Shown here: positions 11,721 to 48,495 of the stretch, piece after piece
How the letters are laid out: the number at the start of each line of letters is the position of its first letter
How positions within the stretch are numbered: the first letter of the stretch is position 1
Source of the DNA: a virus
Lineage: Duplodnaviria; Caudoviricetes
Length of the DNA: 64,000 bases
IMG/VR virus record: IMGVR_UViG_3300020037_004820
Direction: 5' to 3' (one strand)
Translations under genes and position numbers: made by a program
The notes under the pieces: generated by a model
What the model was told of the DNA's origin: nothing
Database searches by the model: none
The model's input: only the letters and a program-made list of their open reading frames with translations

Positions 11721-12941
11721 TTAGGCATCATCTGTCCCGTCATTTTCCGTATTAAGCGAGATATCTACTTCTCCTTCAATTTCTTGATGATCAGTAGTTT
11801 CATCATTTGCTTCTTTCATGGAATATTCAGGATTAATAATCTTGATTTTCTTTCTATTTAGAGTCAACAAATCGTCATTCTTAACAACTATACCTTCTCT
11901 AACTTTTTGAGTTGGAGCAAATATAGAGTCTCCTGCAACGAAACTTTCTGCTATTTCTTTATTCCATTTTCCTTGATACAGGATAGGAACAAATTGTAAA
12001 CCTAAATTATCACAAAAGGTCTGTGCTTCTTCCAAAGAAAGCCATTTCTGATCATTTTCTGTTTGGAATAGAACGTCAAATATTACTAATCCTTTTTGTC
12101 CTTCTTCTAAACCATAATGGTAACCTTTCTGAATATCTGGCCCATAAATTTCTCCGTAAAGAACATACCCAGGAAATTCCTTAAGTTTGCGCTTTAGATC
12201 GAATCTATGACACATTTGTGCATAAATATCCGAACCATACCATGTAGGTGATTTAGATCTCTTTTGTCTTTGTACAGTATTGCTACCGTAACAGAATTCA
12301 TAGGCAGACGTTATATGCAGGAACTTTTTGATTTTTTCCCAAAGAGTTACTGGCTCATTTGGCAAATAACCTGCGCGCCAGTTCGATCCATGAATTTTTT
12401 CCGAAATCCATACAATGTTTTCTTCGGAAAACGCATGTGGTTCCCATTTAATATTGGTGCAACCATTGTATTCTTTGAAATACTGATTGGTCTTCGGTTT
12501 ATTGCGAACCTTTGGAGCATTTTGATCCTTTGGTTGATTTGCAACAAAAGAAGGAGGATAGTATTTTACTACATCCAGTTCATCTGCAATATCAACGTCT
12601 TGAAGAATATATCCAAGATTGCAAAGTTTAGCAATCTCATCAAAAGGAGCAATCATACCTTGCGATACGAATTTTTGAATTCTACAAGCACGAATACGAG
12701 CTTTAGTAAGCTTAATTTTAGCATCAATCGGGAAAAGATAATTTTCAATCTTCGCAGGAAGGATAGAATTAATAGGTAGATAAATAACTATATCTCCTAC
12801 TTTATATTGTCCTTTACCAACAACAACTTGAAAGCCATATACAGTTGCAATTTCTAATCTAAGAACAGTAGGGTTGGGATGAGGAGTTATTTCTAATATA
12901 GAAGTTTTGCATACTTTAAAATTAGGGTCTTTTATCTTCAT
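11721..12941 (-). CDS. RNA ligase, DRB0094/Rnl2-like, with N-terminal OB fold
   Basis: EKIHGSN (motif I), YGEIYG, IFDV, REGIVVK, KIINPEY. Confidence 0.85.
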   Translation of the reverse strand: MKIKDPNFKVCKTSILEITPHPNPTVLRLEIATVYGFQVVVGKGQYKVGDIVIYLPINSILPAKIENYLFPIDAKIKLTKARIRACRIQKFVSQGMIAPFDEIAKLCNLGYILQDVDIADELDVVKYYPPSFVANQPKDQNAPKVRNKPKTNQYFKEYNGCTNIKWEPHAFSEENIVWISEKIHGSNWRAGYLPNEPVTLWEKIKKFLHITSAYEFCYGSNTVQRQKRSKSPTWYGSDIYAQMCHRFDLKRKLKEFPGYVLYGEIYGPDIQKGYHYGLEEGQKGLVIFDVLFQTENDQKWLSLEEAQTFCDNLGLQFVPILYQGKWNKEIAESFVAGDSIFAPTQKVREGIVVKNDDLLTLNRKKIKIINPEYSMKEANDETTDHQEIEGEVDISLNTENDGTDDA

Positions 12942-14636: not shown

Positions 14637-15284
14637 TTATCCCAGTTTATTTGGAACTATAGTTTCGGTTGTCCAATGTTCAGAAGTTTGAACATGTCCT
14701 TCTCGGACATATTTCGCTATATTAGCTTCTGAATCTTCGTATTTGAATCCTGCGAAGTTGCGCACAACAAACCCTTCCACTTCATCACTTCTTTTAGCTT
14801 TATATGAAGCATATAAAGAATTCAATGAATCAGGAATAGGCATTGGTCCCCTATAAATAACAGGAACCGTTCGTAAATTTACGAGAGAGCACCAAAGTTC
14901 AGTAGTTTCCCAATCCAAACAAGTATTGGTATCATCCCAGATGCTAAATACAAGCAAATAAGATTTGAGCGATTTATAATGGATGGAATGTTTCGCATAC
15001 ATATTTTCTGCGCAAACTCTCCATCCATTAGGAAACTCATGTGCTACTTTCTTCCAGATAGCTTTTGCGTAATTTCTGGACGCATGATTGTTAGAATCTA
15101 GTGATCTAGCATGAGCATGACCATCGGAATATCCTGTAAAATTTTCACCATCCATTTTTTCGGTGATAACTACAGATTCCATCTTATATAGATGGCTTTC
15201 TGATTCGAGCTTTTTATCGTCATTAGTACACCCCGGAGAAGTTAGCAAATGAGGTGTTCTAAAATACTTGATTCTTTCAGACAT
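14637..15284 (-). CDS. Short ATP-dependent RNA ligase family protein
   Basis: KYFRTPHL, TEKMDGENFT, ENMYAKHSIHY, EGFVVR, AKYVR. Confidence 0.8.
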   Translation of the reverse strand: MSERIKYFRTPHLLTSPGCTNDDKKLESESHLYKMESVVITEKMDGENFTGYSDGHAHARSLDSNNHASRNYAKAIWKKVAHEFPNGWRVCAENMYAKHSIHYKSLKSYLLVFSIWDDTNTCLDWETTELWCSLVNLRTVPVIYRGPMPIPDSLNSLYASYKAKRSDEVEGFVVRNFAGFKYEDSEANIAKYVREGHVQTSEHWTTETIVPNKLG

Positions 15285-20251: not shown

Positions 20252-21160
20252 TTAAAAATCTGATTCTGGATCATTAACTCTAAATAAAGGCAGCCCTTTA
20301 TCGTGAACCCATCTACAAACTTGTAAACGGTCATCCACCCACGCAGAAATAAAATATTTTCCATCAATTTGTTGAGTATATATTTCTTCTTTTATTATAA
20401 CGTCTTTTCGTTGATCACCTGTTTTTCTCATATATAAAATATAATCTGTTATATCTGGTAAATATGTTTCATAAAATTTAATGGTAGGTTCTCTATATTT
20501 ATCCTCTCTGCCGCTAAGAAAAATAATTTGATATCCAGCGGAGTGATATAGTTTAATCATTTCTATAACATGTTCGTGAGGTAGATCTTTATCACAAGTA
20601 GATGCATCGTAAGGATTTCTACCATTTAGAAGGGACAATGTACCGTCGTTATCACATATAACTGCTTTAGGCAGAGAAGGATCTTGAATCAGATTACTGG
20701 ATTCAGGTTTAGCGATAAATTCTTTTCGAGGCTTGTATTTGCCCCAAAGAATTTCACGGCCTTCTTTAGCAAATTTAACAATAACGTCTTCGGGAACTTT
20801 TCGAGCACGTTCCTTATTACGTTTTATGCATTCTTGTAAAGATGTATCGAAAATCTTCTCTTCATAAAGAACATCCCCTACAAGGGATGCTATATTAAAT
20901 AAATCTTGTCTATAGCTTGCGCGAATGTTGCAATTATCAACTATAACATTCATATCCGCTTTTAATGCTTTGAGCATAAGCGTGGTTTGAAGTTTAGTAA
21001 CTAAACCTTCAATTAAGGGATTGTGTTCGGTTCCAAACATGGTCATACGAATATCATCTCGTGATATTCTGAACCAGTTTTCTTCCTTCTTAAGGAAGTC
21101 CATTGCATATGTGGACTTGCCCGAACAGGGCAGACCGATTAAAACTTGTAACTTTTTCAT
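20252..21160 (-). CDS. pseT: Polynucleotide kinase / 3'-phosphatase (T4 PseT-like)
   Basis: P-loop GLPCSGKST, SRDDIR, HAD motif DNDGT, SGRE, DDRLQV. Confidence 0.9.
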   Translation of the reverse strand: MKKLQVLIGLPCSGKSTYAMDFLKKEENWFRISRDDIRMTMFGTEHNPLIEGLVTKLQTTLMLKALKADMNVIVDNCNIRASYRQDLFNIASLVGDVLYEEKIFDTSLQECIKRNKERARKVPEDVIVKFAKEGREILWGKYKPRKEFIAKPESSNLIQDPSLPKAVICDNDGTLSLLNGRNPYDASTCDKDLPHEHVIEMIKLYHSAGYQIIFLSGREDKYREPTIKFYETYLPDITDYILYMRKTGDQRKDVIIKEEIYTQQIDGKYFISAWVDDRLQVCRWVHDKGLPLFRVNDPESDF

Positions 21161-41590: not shown

Positions 41591-42730
41591 ATGCGTAAAG
41601 ACTTCGCAAAATGTTTATCAGGCGCAAGTTCTCGTAAAAGAGATTGGTCTTCTACAAAAAGCGGAAGACTGAAAAGAAAATCAGCGATTAGAACGAAAGT
41701 CTTTTCTACAGAAGATATTGACGAATATACTCTATATCCTGAAGAAAAGTTTAAAAATACTGAACCTACACCATTTAAAAATGGTAAAGGCGGATTTCAT
41801 AGACCAAATATTACGTTTGCGCCGCTAAACAACTTTATACAAAGCCGAGTAGGACACCATTGGAACGATGTATATTCAGAAATTTGCAAGGCTATGCCTA
41901 AAAAGAAAGAAATCAATTGGTATATACATAATTTATTCGGATATAATATCTACAATATAGGTCTAGATAAAGAGGGAGATATATATCTACAAACAATTAG
42001 AGGAGAACGATATTATAGTAGATATCAATGTATTCGAGATTCCGATTATATAATTGATAAGAACGGTATTTTGAGATCTGCTAAAGATTATAGCGAAAAA
42101 TTATCAACTTTAGCTAGAGCTAAATTGCGAATGAGACAATTAGATCATCTATATAAAAATGATTTAGATGGGTATTATTATGAAGAAATTCATGAAGATT
42201 ATATTGAAAAATATACCTTTTCCAGATTATATCGACGACCTAGTGTCACTATTACTGTAACTAAACGTGTTCCCATGGAATGTTTTCAAGTTACTGGTGA
42301 AAAAGATTATGTAGTTTATAATAATGTGTGGAATGCAGAAAAGAAGCAGTATGATAAAGTCGAGAAAAAACTCGATAATCTTCAAAAAATAAAAATTCCT
42401 ATCTTTGGTAATCCTTTCTATAATCATTTAGATGAACCAGTGTATCTTATTTCTTGTACTGACGAATGGAATTATAGAAGAATGCATTATAAAGGTTTAA
42501 CAGATAATAGATTATATCCAGTCACACTTCATTTTAAAGTGAAACATAATTCAGATAAAGTTGGTTATACAATTACTAATCCCGTAGCTAACTGGAAAAC
42601 TTCTTTTAGTTATTCAAAAATACACATATCTAATATATATACGAAATTTTGGGAAGAATATAGAGATACTGAAAATAAAATAGAAGAAGCAACTGCTCAA
42701 TTGAATGAACTGTATGAGGAGTTAGTATAA
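41591..42730 (+). CDS. Hypothetical protein
   Basis: 379-aa ORF; PLNNFIQSRVGHHWNDVYSEIC motif. Confidence 0.55.
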   Translation: MRKDFAKCLSGASSRKRDWSSTKSGRLKRKSAIRTKVFSTEDIDEYTLYPEEKFKNTEPTPFKNGKGGFHRPNITFAPLNNFIQSRVGHHWNDVYSEICKAMPKKKEINWYIHNLFGYNIYNIGLDKEGDIYLQTIRGERYYSRYQCIRDSDYIIDKNGILRSAKDYSEKLSTLARAKLRMRQLDHLYKNDLDGYYYEEIHEDYIEKYTFSRLYRRPSVTITVTKRVPMECFQVTGEKDYVVYNNVWNAEKKQYDKVEKKLDNLQKIKIPIFGNPFYNHLDEPVYLISCTDEWNYRRMHYKGLTDNRLYPVTLHFKVKHNSDKVGYTITNPVANWKTSFSYSKIHISNIYTKFWEEYRDTENKIEEATAQLNELYEELV

Positions 42731-43231
42731 TGAATTTAGGTACAGGTGATGTAATCATATTGCGCAATAGACAATATGATATAGCTCCCGAATATATTAA
42801 AAATCTTGGTTGGGAATTAGGAAGACAAGATGCTTTATATGTGAAAGCTAAAATATCAATCCCAACTTGTTTGTTGAAAGAAATATCAGATGTGTTTATA
42901 CAGTACGCAGCCCTTGATACTTGGCATATAAAGGTTCAATCTTCTATTCCTTTGCATTGTGATCCTGTTACGGATTGTTCGCATTATAGATTCAATGTCT
43001 CGTATAAAGGTGATTATTGGTTGAATGTTGAAGATTCAACATATCTTATAAAAGAAGGTGATGCAGTTTTATTTAGATCGGATATTAGTTTACACGGAAT
43101 TGATCTTTTTGAAAATAATATTGTCGAAATCTTTTCTGTAGGTATATTTATTGGACGAGATAACTCATGATTAATCATGCGTCTTGCTCTATGAAAATTT
43201 CATATTCGTTTAGTACGAGCCTGGGCGGCAT

Positions 43232-43357: not shown

Positions 43358-43720
43358 ATGGCAATTCCCGCCCATGTTCGTTCATTTGCTTCGGTTTCGA
43401 ATCGCCGCATGGAAAAGCTGAATGGTAAGGACTTCGATAAGAAGTCGCATTACATTCATGTTCGTCCGGCAGATCAGGCGGATATTTTGGTTCTCGCAGT
43501 TCATGGGGACAATAATGACCCGGATATTTGCGATACGGCGCGATTCATCGCTATGAATCCTCGATATGCCGCTATTCTGGCGGTTACGATCGAAGATGTC
43601 CTTCGAAACGATCTGAATTTCAACTTCGATAAGGTTCGTAAGGAGACGTTGAAGCGTCTCGCGAAGAAGTACGAACCTGTTTCGGATGCACAGGAACAGC
43701 CGGTTGCGGAAGCTGGCTAA
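43358..43720 (+). CDS. GC-rich hypothetical protein leading the tRNA cluster
   Basis: 120-aa ORF with GC-rich codons and its own promoter. Confidence 0.65.
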   Translation: MAIPAHVRSFASVSNRRMEKLNGKDFDKKSHYIHVRPADQADILVLAVHGDNNDPDICDTARFIAMNPRYAAILAVTIEDVLRNDLNFNFDKVRKETLKRLAKKYEPVSDAQEQPVAEAG

Positions 43721-44032: not shown

Positions 44033-44041
44033 AAAAGAGAA

Positions 44042-44132
44042 GAGAGTGAATCTCGGTTCGATTCCGAGCGTACCCGATTCGAGGCCAATTCGGGGTAGAT
44101 TCGTCGTCTAATATGGAATAGGACGCACTCTT
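44042..44132 (+). ncRNA. Circularly permuted tRNA-like RNA
   Basis: gagagtg/cactctt closing stem; T arm ctcgg-ttcgatt-ccgag; looped acceptor taccc/gggta; D arm gtct-aatatggaata-ggac. Confidence 0.7.
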
Positions 44133-44138
44133 AATCGC

Positions 44139-44216
44139 GGGACTCTGAACGTAATTGGTTAACGTCCCCGCCTCATAAGCGGAAAATTCTGGGTTCAAAT
44201 CCCAGGTGTCCCACCA
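44139..44216 (+). tRNA. tRNA(CAT), probably Ile2 (TilS substrate) or Met
   Basis: GGGACTC/GTGTCCC, CCCGC-CTCATAA-GCGGA, ACCA. Confidence 0.8.
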
Positions 44217-44225
44217 AACCATACG

Positions 44226-45006
44226 TTTCTAATCTGGTCTTAAAAAGCCACTACTCCGAGCACAGTACAATCACCGCTCAGATCAGATTAGAAAGGGCAC
44301 GTTTAGTGCCCAATTACATGACTAGTGACAAGTCTCATTTTGGAGACGGGTAATCAGTCCTCCTTGTCATTAGTCATCTTGATTAAAGAGCATACCAGTT
44401 GCACAATTCGGTGCGATCGGTGGAGTCAAAATGCTCAAAAAGGTGATCTCCTACTCCTAATGAGTTAATCATCATAGATAAAGATAGCTCATCCATCCTG
44501 ATAAGATGAAGATGGGACTACTCAAGAGAGAGAATGCCTGGTATCTCCTGAGTATAGTGGAAGGCAAAATAGAATGATACCAACTTAAAATTACATGGAT
44601 TTGACAGCGAAAGCTGTCTCTAGCTAAGTTTTGGCAAGAGAAGTAAGCTAGAGTACACAAAAATTGCAAAGGAAACACTCCTCTGCTGGGAATGTCGCCG
44701 GTTGTTGTAGTGAGAAGTCGGTGCCGTAAAACTCTACATAAGAGGACGAGTATCTCGCAAGGAGAGAAAGGACTTGAGATAGTAGTAATCCGGTGTGTAC
44801 GTCGATACCTACCAACTCGGGAAAAACGAAGCACAGTGAATGCGGTTCTGCTGAAGAGATTATGTTGTCAGAGCTATTCAAACTAGTTCGGATGATGTAG
44901 TTGAACAGTTTCCGAGCGGGTTCCCTGCCCGCTCAATTCAAACACAACAAGGCAACTTAACACAGTCCTTCTGTGAAAACAGTGAGTTGATAGTGTTTCT
45001 TTGCCA
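44226..45006 (+). ncRNA. Putative large (~700-780 nt) structured RNA, possibly of the ROOL/GOLLD class
   Basis: No credible ORF; two 15-bp stems (tttctaatctggtct/agatcagattagaaa; atgactagtgacaag/cttgtcattagtcat), GAAA/GCAA-capped hairpins, many further helices. Confidence 0.6.
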
Positions 45007-45012
45007 AAACAT

Positions 45013-45104
45013 GGAAGTATGGCCGAGTCTGGCTTATGGCTACAGTCTAGAAAACTGTCGCGGTCTAACAACCGCCGTAGGTTCAAATCCTACTGCTTCC
45101 TCCA
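45013..45104 (+). tRNA. tRNA-Ser(AGA)
   Basis: GGAAGTA/TGCTTCC, ACAGT-CTAGAAA-ACTGT, long variable arm, CCA. Confidence 0.85.
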
Positions 45105-48418: not shown

Positions 48419-48495
48419 AATTGGTCATAGCATTACTGGATAATGCGTTCCGCTAGTACCGGAAAGATTGGGTTCGAATCCCGAGCCAATTACTA
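48419..48495 (+). tRNA. tRNA-Thr(AGT), atypical, no encoded CCA
   Basis: AATTGGT/GCCAATT, TTCCG-CTAGTAC-CGGAA, TTCGAAT; 2 extra nt before the D arm; ends ACTA. Confidence 0.65.

What the first reader, a model, noticed from the sequence alone, without database searches (positions are those of the whole stretch)
44226..45006. Large unannotated structured RNA inside the tRNA cluster
Seen: about 780 nt with no credible ORF between tRNA(CAT) and tRNA-Ser. It is GC-richer than the coding DNA, with two 15-bp helices, gacagc-GAAA-gctgtc, ctctagct/agctagag, gtacaca/tgtgtac and gagcggg/cccgctc. Known: GOLLD and ROOL are giant structured RNAs found beside phage tRNAs. Inference: a member of one of these classes or a new one; I cannot assign it by eye.
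Basis: partly seen in the sequence, partly recalled or inferred. Interest (0 to 1): 0.7.

Follow-up and report, generated by a model that had tools for sequence, protein, structure and literature searches.

The report
Modular knotted RNAs between phage tRNAs
The gene-free stretch between two tRNA genes of an uncultured giant phage is real folded RNA, but it is a row of separable knotted modules rather than one GOLLD or ROOL giant; none matches a catalogued family, one looks like a free-standing miniature of GOLLD's last domain, and their job is untested.

Summary
Observation largely confirmed: no conserved ORF, GC 42.8% vs 34.6%, folding z -4.2, no Rfam hit, while the GOLLD and ROOL models score 151-261 bits on known members. 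Four related phages carry homologues at the same place. Covariation supports three pseudoknotted modules: A (44388-44458), M (44519-44566, weaker) and BC (44618-44934). A stands alone after tRNA(CAU) in two more distant phages, BC is tandemly doubled in two and probably stands alone in a third, and no covarying helix links the modules. So this is most likely an array of separate RNAs, not a GOLLD/ROOL member. Module A has the topology of GOLLD's P23-P24-P27 end domain minus P25/26, though sequence profiles do not detect kinship. One claimed helix (gtacaca/tgtgtac) is not conserved. Best guess: stable RNAs released by tRNA processing that dock on a partner through invariant loops, in a phage rich in RNA-repair genes. 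Expression and function are unshown. No further members were found in five collections. The scan noted similar kinds of RNA on other DNA, but no look-alike of this sequence.

The parts
44139..44216 (+). tRNA(CAU), called Met; possibly Ile2 since the phage encodes TilS (inference). Module A lies 8-170 nt downstream of it in 7 of 7 loci
44226..44294 (+). Long hairpin with a large C-rich internal loop; counterparts in L003 and L008, not in L005 or L109
   Evidence: z -4.7
44295..44385 (+). Variable hairpins, including the 15-bp helix 44318-44332/44363-44377; strain-specific
   Evidence: z -6.4
44388..44458 (+). Module A: P1 44388-93/44431-36; P2 44394-404/44411-21 of fixed length with a conserved 6-nt loop; P3 44441-43/44456-58; pseudoknot GGAG 44422-25 with CUCC 44448-51. 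Same topology as GOLLD P23-P24-J24/26-P27 without P25/26
   Evidence: (94% paired, 17 of 24 pairs changed on both sides)
44459..44602 (+). Module M: two variable hairpins, then hairpin 44519-29/44544-54 whose loop (44535-39) pairs with 44562-66, then a conserved A-rich stretch
   Evidence: found by eye in 5 homologues, less certain than A and BC
44603..44618 (+). GAAA-capped hairpin; the stem is kept in all five first units, the loop varies; absent before the second BC copies
44618..44671 (+). Module BC, 5' pseudoknot: P1 44618-24/44647-53; loop UUUU 44629-32, invariant bulged G 44633 and GCAA 44634-37 pair with UUGC 44664-67 and AAAG 44668-71 across an A-rich linker
   Evidence: 8 units, 6 different paired sequences; 100% paired
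44671..44913 (+). Module BC, large variable multibranch domain closed by 44671-76/44908-13 (GGAA/UUCC in first units, GAGA/UCUC in second units); inner helix 44726-32/44845-51; inner fold only partly resolved
44914..44934 (+). Module BC, terminal hairpin: freely covarying stem, near-invariant loop U(U/C)CCCUG
   Evidence: 6 of 8 pairs changed on both sides
44951..45005 (+). Tail hairpin, not conserved: relatives hold a tRNA-Ser-like gene (L003), a second BC (L005, L109) or nothing (L008) here
   Evidence: (z -2.2)
45013..45104 (+). tRNA-Ser(AGA), 3' boundary of the interval

Best explanation
The interval is a cassette of separately folding non-coding RNAs transcribed within the phage tRNA operon: a 71-nt module A, a small pseudoknot M and a 300-480-nt module BC. 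Shown: their folds and their separability. Inferred: maturation of the flanking tRNAs (RNase P at tRNA 5' ends, 3' trimming) releases them; their pseudoknots lock them against decay so that they accumulate during infection; and they act in trans by presenting fixed loops (the A hexaloop on a stem of constant length, the BC terminal loop, the bulged G) to a constant partner, most likely a host or phage RNA-binding protein or nuclease, as decoys or scaffolds in the phage's tRNA-protection and RNA-repair programme. Odds: structured RNA 0.97; separable modules rather than one obligatory fold 0.8; released, trans-acting docking or decoy RNAs about 0.4.
For: Covariation for A, the BC pseudoknot and the terminal hairpin. 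A alone between tRNA(CAU) and tRNA-Arg with spacers of about 10 nt in L107, and alone in L108. BC doubled in L005 and L109 (second L109 copy detected by profiles built without it, E about 0.001) and filling the 300 nt between two tRNAs in L111. No covarying inter-module helix (101). Loops stay constant while stems change freely, and no partner for the BC loop at a conserved place was seen inside the units, which points outward. In GOLLD the loop equivalent to A's hexaloop (L24) is an intermolecular docking loop (PMC12990946). The window encodes Ro60/TROVE, CCA enzyme, TilS, MnmA, two RNA ligases and polynucleotide kinase.
Against: No direct evidence of expression, ends or partner. The order A-M-BC is kept in all five close relatives, so there they may work as one 550-nt RNA. 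Only 5 full loci, 7 A and 8 BC units, all from one phage clade, so covariation is partly shared ancestry. The L111 and L108 BC copies were recognised by eye; the model of the BC pseudoknot does not detect them. RNA-repair genes nearby are context only.
Confidence: 0.4

Rival explanations
1. One large ornate RNA (A-M-BC, about 550 nt) that works like GOLLD/ROOL and forms an RNA-only multimer, perhaps a permuted or split GOLLD-like RNA with the end domain moved to the front.
For: Same setting (downstream of tRNA-CAU, as GOLLD env-38); three pseudoknots; conserved order in five phages; module A shares GOLLD's end-domain core, and one descriptor hits 5 of 7 A modules and 2 of 4 GOLLDs and nothing else in 4.0 Mb; BC has the same broad order as GOLLD's middle (hairpin, A-rich linker, pseudoknot, large closed domain, hairpin).
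Against: GOLLD and ROOL models silent; A model and profile do not score GOLLD even with P25/26 cut out; BC model does not hit GOLLD or ROOL; modules occur apart; no conserved self-complementary loop; the descriptor was written after seeing both sets.
Confidence: 0.2
2. Cis-acting elements of the tRNA operon transcript: nuclease road-blocks or processing or antitermination signals that protect or pace the neighbouring tRNAs.
For: A follows tRNA(CAU) in 7 of 7 loci; compact pseudoknots suit exonuclease blocking; in GOLLD the equivalent domain clamps the 3' end.
Against: The A-to-tRNA distance varies from 8 to 170 nt; BC moves between different tRNAs and is doubled; a 300-480-nt domain is more than a road-block needs.
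Confidence: 0.2
3. Module A or BC is a ribozyme (self-cleaving or tRNA-trailer-cleaving, like the HDV-like theta ribozymes of phage tRNAs, PMC10879173).
For: Small, knotted, several invariant unpaired residues, next to tRNA 3' ends.
Against: No ribozyme family in Rfam matches even at E 10 (7); no fixed distance to the tRNA end; topology is not the nested double pseudoknot of HDV-like RNAs (own knowledge).
Confidence: 0.1
4. Mimics of a host RNA antitoxin (like PhiTE pseudo-ToxI, PMC3475682), with BC doubling as dose increase.
For: H-type pseudoknots with A-rich linkers; tandem duplication of BC in two phages.
Against: No Rfam antitoxin match; BC is about ten times longer than a ToxI repeat and the two copies are strongly diverged; host unknown.
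Confidence: 0.07
5. Selfish or relic RNA with no current job.
For: HNH genes are scattered through the tRNA cluster (105); modules are gained and lost.
Against: Pairings are kept through many double changes while loops stay invariant, which needs selection on the RNA; no ORF is tied to the modules.
Confidence: 0.03

Closest known systems
GOLLD RNA (Rfam RF02032; cryo-EM, bioRxiv 10.1101/2024.12.08.627333), 3'-terminal domain P23-P24-J24/26-P27
   Same: Phage tRNA cluster, downstream of tRNA-CAU; module A has the same order of helix, AC/GU-based hairpin, GGAN linker, AAA junction, A-rich linker and 3-bp terminal hairpin whose loop pairs back with the GGAN linker (GGAY/RUCU in four phage GOLLDs, GGAG/CUCC here).
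   Different: No score on the GOLLD model; P25/26 missing; the domain lies at the front, or alone; none of GOLLD's P14-P21 bridging loops recognisable; no profile-level sequence kinship.
ROOL RNA (Rfam RF03087; PMC5737381)
   Same: Size of the conserved part (about 550 vs 581 nt), three pseudoknots, tRNA-cluster setting.
   Different: No model hit (control 260.6 bits on EFDG1); ROOL is closed end to end by a long helix and its halves are intertwined, whereas these modules are local and separable.
Small stable RNAs of phage tRNA clusters (T4 species 1 and 2; from own knowledge, not tested)
   Same: Non-tRNA structured RNAs co-transcribed with and flanked by tRNAs; function unknown.
   Different: No similarity found to any cultured phage genome in INPHARED.
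Theta (HDV-like) ribozymes of phage tRNAs (PMC10879173)
   Same: Small pseudoknotted RNA downstream of a phage tRNA.
   Different: No Rfam HDV-like hit; variable spacing to the tRNA; different topology.

Membership tests
GOLLD | Scores on the RF02032 covariance model of the conserved 3' region | tested here: not met
   No hit at E<=10 on the window or at gathering on L003, L005, L008 (33); controls score 150.7-216.4 bits
GOLLD | Terminal domain in which L27 pairs with J24/26 | tested here: met
   Module A has this topology with a covarying pseudoknot; joint descriptor 5/7 and 2/4, none in 4.0 Mb background; written post hoc, and P25/26 is missing
GOLLD | That domain at the 3' end, after P13-P22 | tested here: not met
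   A lies 5' of M and BC or alone; BC model does not hit GOLLD
GOLLD | Detectable sequence kinship of the end domain | tested here: not met
   A model on four GOLLDs: no hit; profile HMM on P25/26-deleted GOLLD ends: no score
GOLLD | Location near phage tRNAs, often after tRNA-Met | tested here: met
GOLLD | Forms RNA-only cages | not testable with these tools
   Needs cryo-EM or mass photometry
ROOL | Scores on RF03087 | tested here: not met
   control 260.6 bits
ROOL | 5' and 3' ends joined by a long helix, halves intertwined | tested here: not met
   No conserved end-to-end or inter-module covarying helix in five homologues
RNase P, tmRNA, group I/II introns, known small ribozymes, Y RNA (YrlA) | Rfam model hit | tested here: not met
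   tmRNA control rings at 140.6 bits on EFDG1 (39); ARAGORN finds no tmRNA
Self-cleaving ribozyme of a new class | Site-specific self-cleavage | not testable with these tools
   Needs an in vitro assay

The most novel reading that the evidence does not exclude
Module A is a free-living miniature of GOLLD's end domain, and A and BC are the separable parts of a split or permuted GOLLD-like assembly that dock on each other in trans after tRNA processing; giant ornate RNAs would then be built from small, shuffled RNA genes of phage tRNA arrays.
Probability: 0.15. Interest if true: 0.8.

Novelty: new variant of a known kind. Interest (0 to 1): 0.5.

Why it matters
GOLLD and ROOL have structures but no known function. 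A natural 71-nt RNA with the fold of GOLLD's end domain, living alone between two tRNAs, would be a minimal handle for asking what that domain binds and how such giants arose. BC is a second uncatalogued pseudoknotted family with an invariant loop and bulge that can be mutated directly. The limits: the families are known from one uncultured phage clade only, and no function or expression is shown.

Tried and rejected
Rfam at gathering and E<=10: tRNAs only. blastn of the interval and of homologues against INPHARED phages and PLSDB plasmids: nothing. No host genome held. Six pattern scans of IMG/VR, one of JGI metagenomes and one of GTDB gave only chance hits when checked by profile, model or pairing; two tempting ones were coding DNA (L024, L054). 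The JGI scan missed even this phage's own contigs, so absence there is weak. Sequencing runs: wastewater libraries labelled RNA-Seq hold near-identical contigs across the operon, including 44557-44779 and 44686-44999, and none over 42000-43004, but the tool rates them probably DNA and contigs show no ends; a soil RNA run covers only 44037-44261. Not used as evidence of expression; the two substitutions seen (44801, 44816) are uninformative. Energy-only long-range helices (44664/45007, 44628/45010, 44809/44993) were dropped as not conserved. Promoter scan: no excess over shuffles. Profile test of kinship between A and GOLLD failed; my first two descriptors were too strict or crashed. The joint probability for the M pseudoknot (4e-7) is inflated by choosing the windows after seeing the pairs. 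RNAalifold's middle helices on A4 conflict with the pseudoknot and are poorly supported.

Full report
Setting. The window comes from a large uncultured phage: the same sigma factor sits on a 221-kb contig, there are 27 tRNA genes, and the window encodes a CCA-adding enzyme, TilS, MnmA, Ro60/TROVE, two RNA ligases, polynucleotide kinase and several HNH nucleases. The flagged interval lies between tRNA(CAU) 44139-44216 and tRNA-Ser(AGA) 45013-45104.

Observation. GC is 0.428 against 0.346 for the window and all named motifs are in place. The plus strand folds at -237.8 kcal/mol, z -4.2; the minus strand is similar, so strand is inferred from the tRNAs and from the G-U pairs and loops in the alignments. 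Open frames are not conserved between homologues. Rfam gives only tRNAs, even at E 10. The controls work: GOLLD scores 151-216 bits on four phage GOLLDs and ROOL 261 bits on EFDG1.

Homologues. Using the 120-aa gene upstream (43358-43720) as a marker I fetched related phage contigs. Four distinct close relatives have the interval at the same place: L003 (926 nt), L005 (1070), L008 (664) and L109 (1146). Three more distant phages (L107, L108, L111) carry parts of it.

Module A (44388-44458). Seven sequences align. On the structure P1, P2, P3 plus one pseudoknot, 94% of cells pair, 17 of 24 pairs change on both sides, none of 500 shuffles reaches this, and sliding the partners drops pairing to 38-49%. 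The pseudoknot reads GGAG/CUCC in five, GAAG/CUUC in L107 and GAGG/CCUC in L108. P2 has a constant length and a conserved six-base loop. In L107 the module fills the gap between tRNA(CAU) and a tRNA-Arg with spacers of about 10 nt (that tRNA is cut by the contig end); in L108 it is also alone. It follows tRNA(CAU) in all seven loci.

Module BC (44618-44934). A hairpin loop pairs with a strand beyond an A-rich linker: three or four U-A pairs, an invariant bulged G, then four to seven Watson-Crick pairs that take six different sequences in eight units; on seven aligned units the helix is 100% paired with three doubly changed pairs. A short helix (GGAA/UUCC in first units, GAGA/UCUC in second units) closes a large variable domain, and a hairpin ends the module whose stem changes freely (6 of 8 pairs doubly changed) while its loop hardly varies. 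L005 and L109 hold two diverged BC units in tandem; the second L109 unit was detected by profiles built without it. L111 holds both end features 268 nt apart, filling the space between tRNA-Lys and tRNA-Arg; this is by eye, because a 43-nt insertion defeats the model. L108 has a possible more diverged copy 1.4 kb from its A module. The inner domain is only partly resolved.

Module M (44459-44602). In all five close relatives the loop of the last hairpin can pair with the next strand, with different sequences each time. Per-sequence shuffle odds are 0.009-0.18 with windows chosen after the fact, so this is likely, not proven.

One RNA or several? A scan for helices that all five homologues can form found covarying ones only inside modules (it depends on an imperfect alignment). 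With A alone twice, BC doubled twice and probably alone once, I put separability at 0.8.

Relation to GOLLD. The GOLLD consensus ends in a helix, a UAC/GUG-based hairpin, a GGAY linker, a further hairpin, an AAAG junction, an A-rich linker and a 3-bp hairpin. [quoted passage not shown] Module A has the same order without P25/26, with its pseudoknot in the same register. One descriptor hits 5 of 7 A modules and 2 of 4 GOLLD ends and nothing else in 4.0 Mb of fetched DNA, but I wrote it knowing both sets, and neither the A covariance model nor its profile HMM on P25/26-deleted GOLLD ends gives a score. I put common descent near even and convergence as the alternative. It is not a GOLLD: the model fails, the domain is at the front or alone, and the bridging domain is not recognisable. 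The loop equivalent to A's hexaloop, L24, is an intermolecular docking loop in one GOLLD structure (PMC12990946), which supports reading A as a self-locked handle that presents a docking loop.

How it most likely works. Shown: folds and separability. From established tRNA biology: spacers between tRNAs are cut out when the tRNAs mature, so A in L107 and BC in L111 would be released almost exactly. Inferred: the knots make them stable, and the invariant loops, for which I saw no conserved partner inside the RNA, bind a constant outside partner, as decoy or scaffold in a phage heavily equipped for tRNA supply and RNA repair (0.4). Rivals: one GOLLD-like multimer (0.2), cis-acting protection or processing of the tRNA transcript (0.2), ribozyme (0.1), antitoxin mimic (0.07), relic (0.03). 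Expression is not shown: libraries labelled RNA-Seq hold the sequence but may be DNA.

Distribution and novelty. No member was found outside this phage clade in IMG/VR, JGI metagenomes, GTDB, INPHARED or PLSDB; these were exact-pattern or blastn searches of incomplete collections, so wider spread is not excluded. Literature searches showed no description of these modules. Earlier notes of this scan describe other uncatalogued knotted RNAs in phage tRNA arrays but no look-alike of this sequence; I could not test whether any is a distant member. Verdict: real RNA, new families of a known kind of element, with one module echoing GOLLD; interest 0.5.

Noticed in passing
window:43818-43947: 130-nt multi-arm RNA closed by a 13-bp helix (z -5.5), 88-91% identical in L007-L010; no Rfam hit.
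   Followed up: partly
window:43958-44034 and 44042-44132: Two more small structured elements with T-arm-like loops before tRNA(CAU), kept in L101 and L109; candidates for partners of the phage's Ro60.
   Followed up: no
window:45108-45196: Structured 89-nt spacer between tRNA-Ser and tRNA-Asp (z -4.9), conserved in L003 and L005.
   Followed up: no
window:45013-45104, 48419-48493; L109:7251-7327; L111:11762-11833: tRNAs with A34 anticodons that are rare in bacteria: Ser(AGA), Thr(AGT), Phe(AAA), Val(AAC). L111 encodes a deaminase of the dCMP/MafB19 type nearby, a possible A34-to-inosine enzyme.
   Followed up: no
window:7990-9567 (-): Phage-encoded Ro60/TROVE protein inside the second tRNA cluster, with RNA ligases at 11721-12941 and 14637-15284 and polynucleotide kinase at 20252-21160.
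   Followed up: no
window:43358-43720: 120-aa GC-rich gene heading the tRNA operon, no Pfam family, conserved in all relatives (67-83% identity in close ones); a 6-nt deletion variant exists.
   Followed up: partly
window:44785-44793: A UAAUYCGG-like motif in the BC inner domain, kept in four of five first units, resembles the module A hexaloop; unexplained.
   Followed up: no
L003:11452-11548: tRNA-Ser(UGA)-like gene not called by ARAGORN or Rfam, in the slot of the window's 44951-45005 hairpin.
   Followed up: no
window:25146-27843: Three-gene run ending in a 225-aa ORF with a ThiF/E1-like GAGAIG motif (seen by eye; PHROGs gives unknown function); possibly a ubiquitin-like conjugation cassette.
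   Followed up: no
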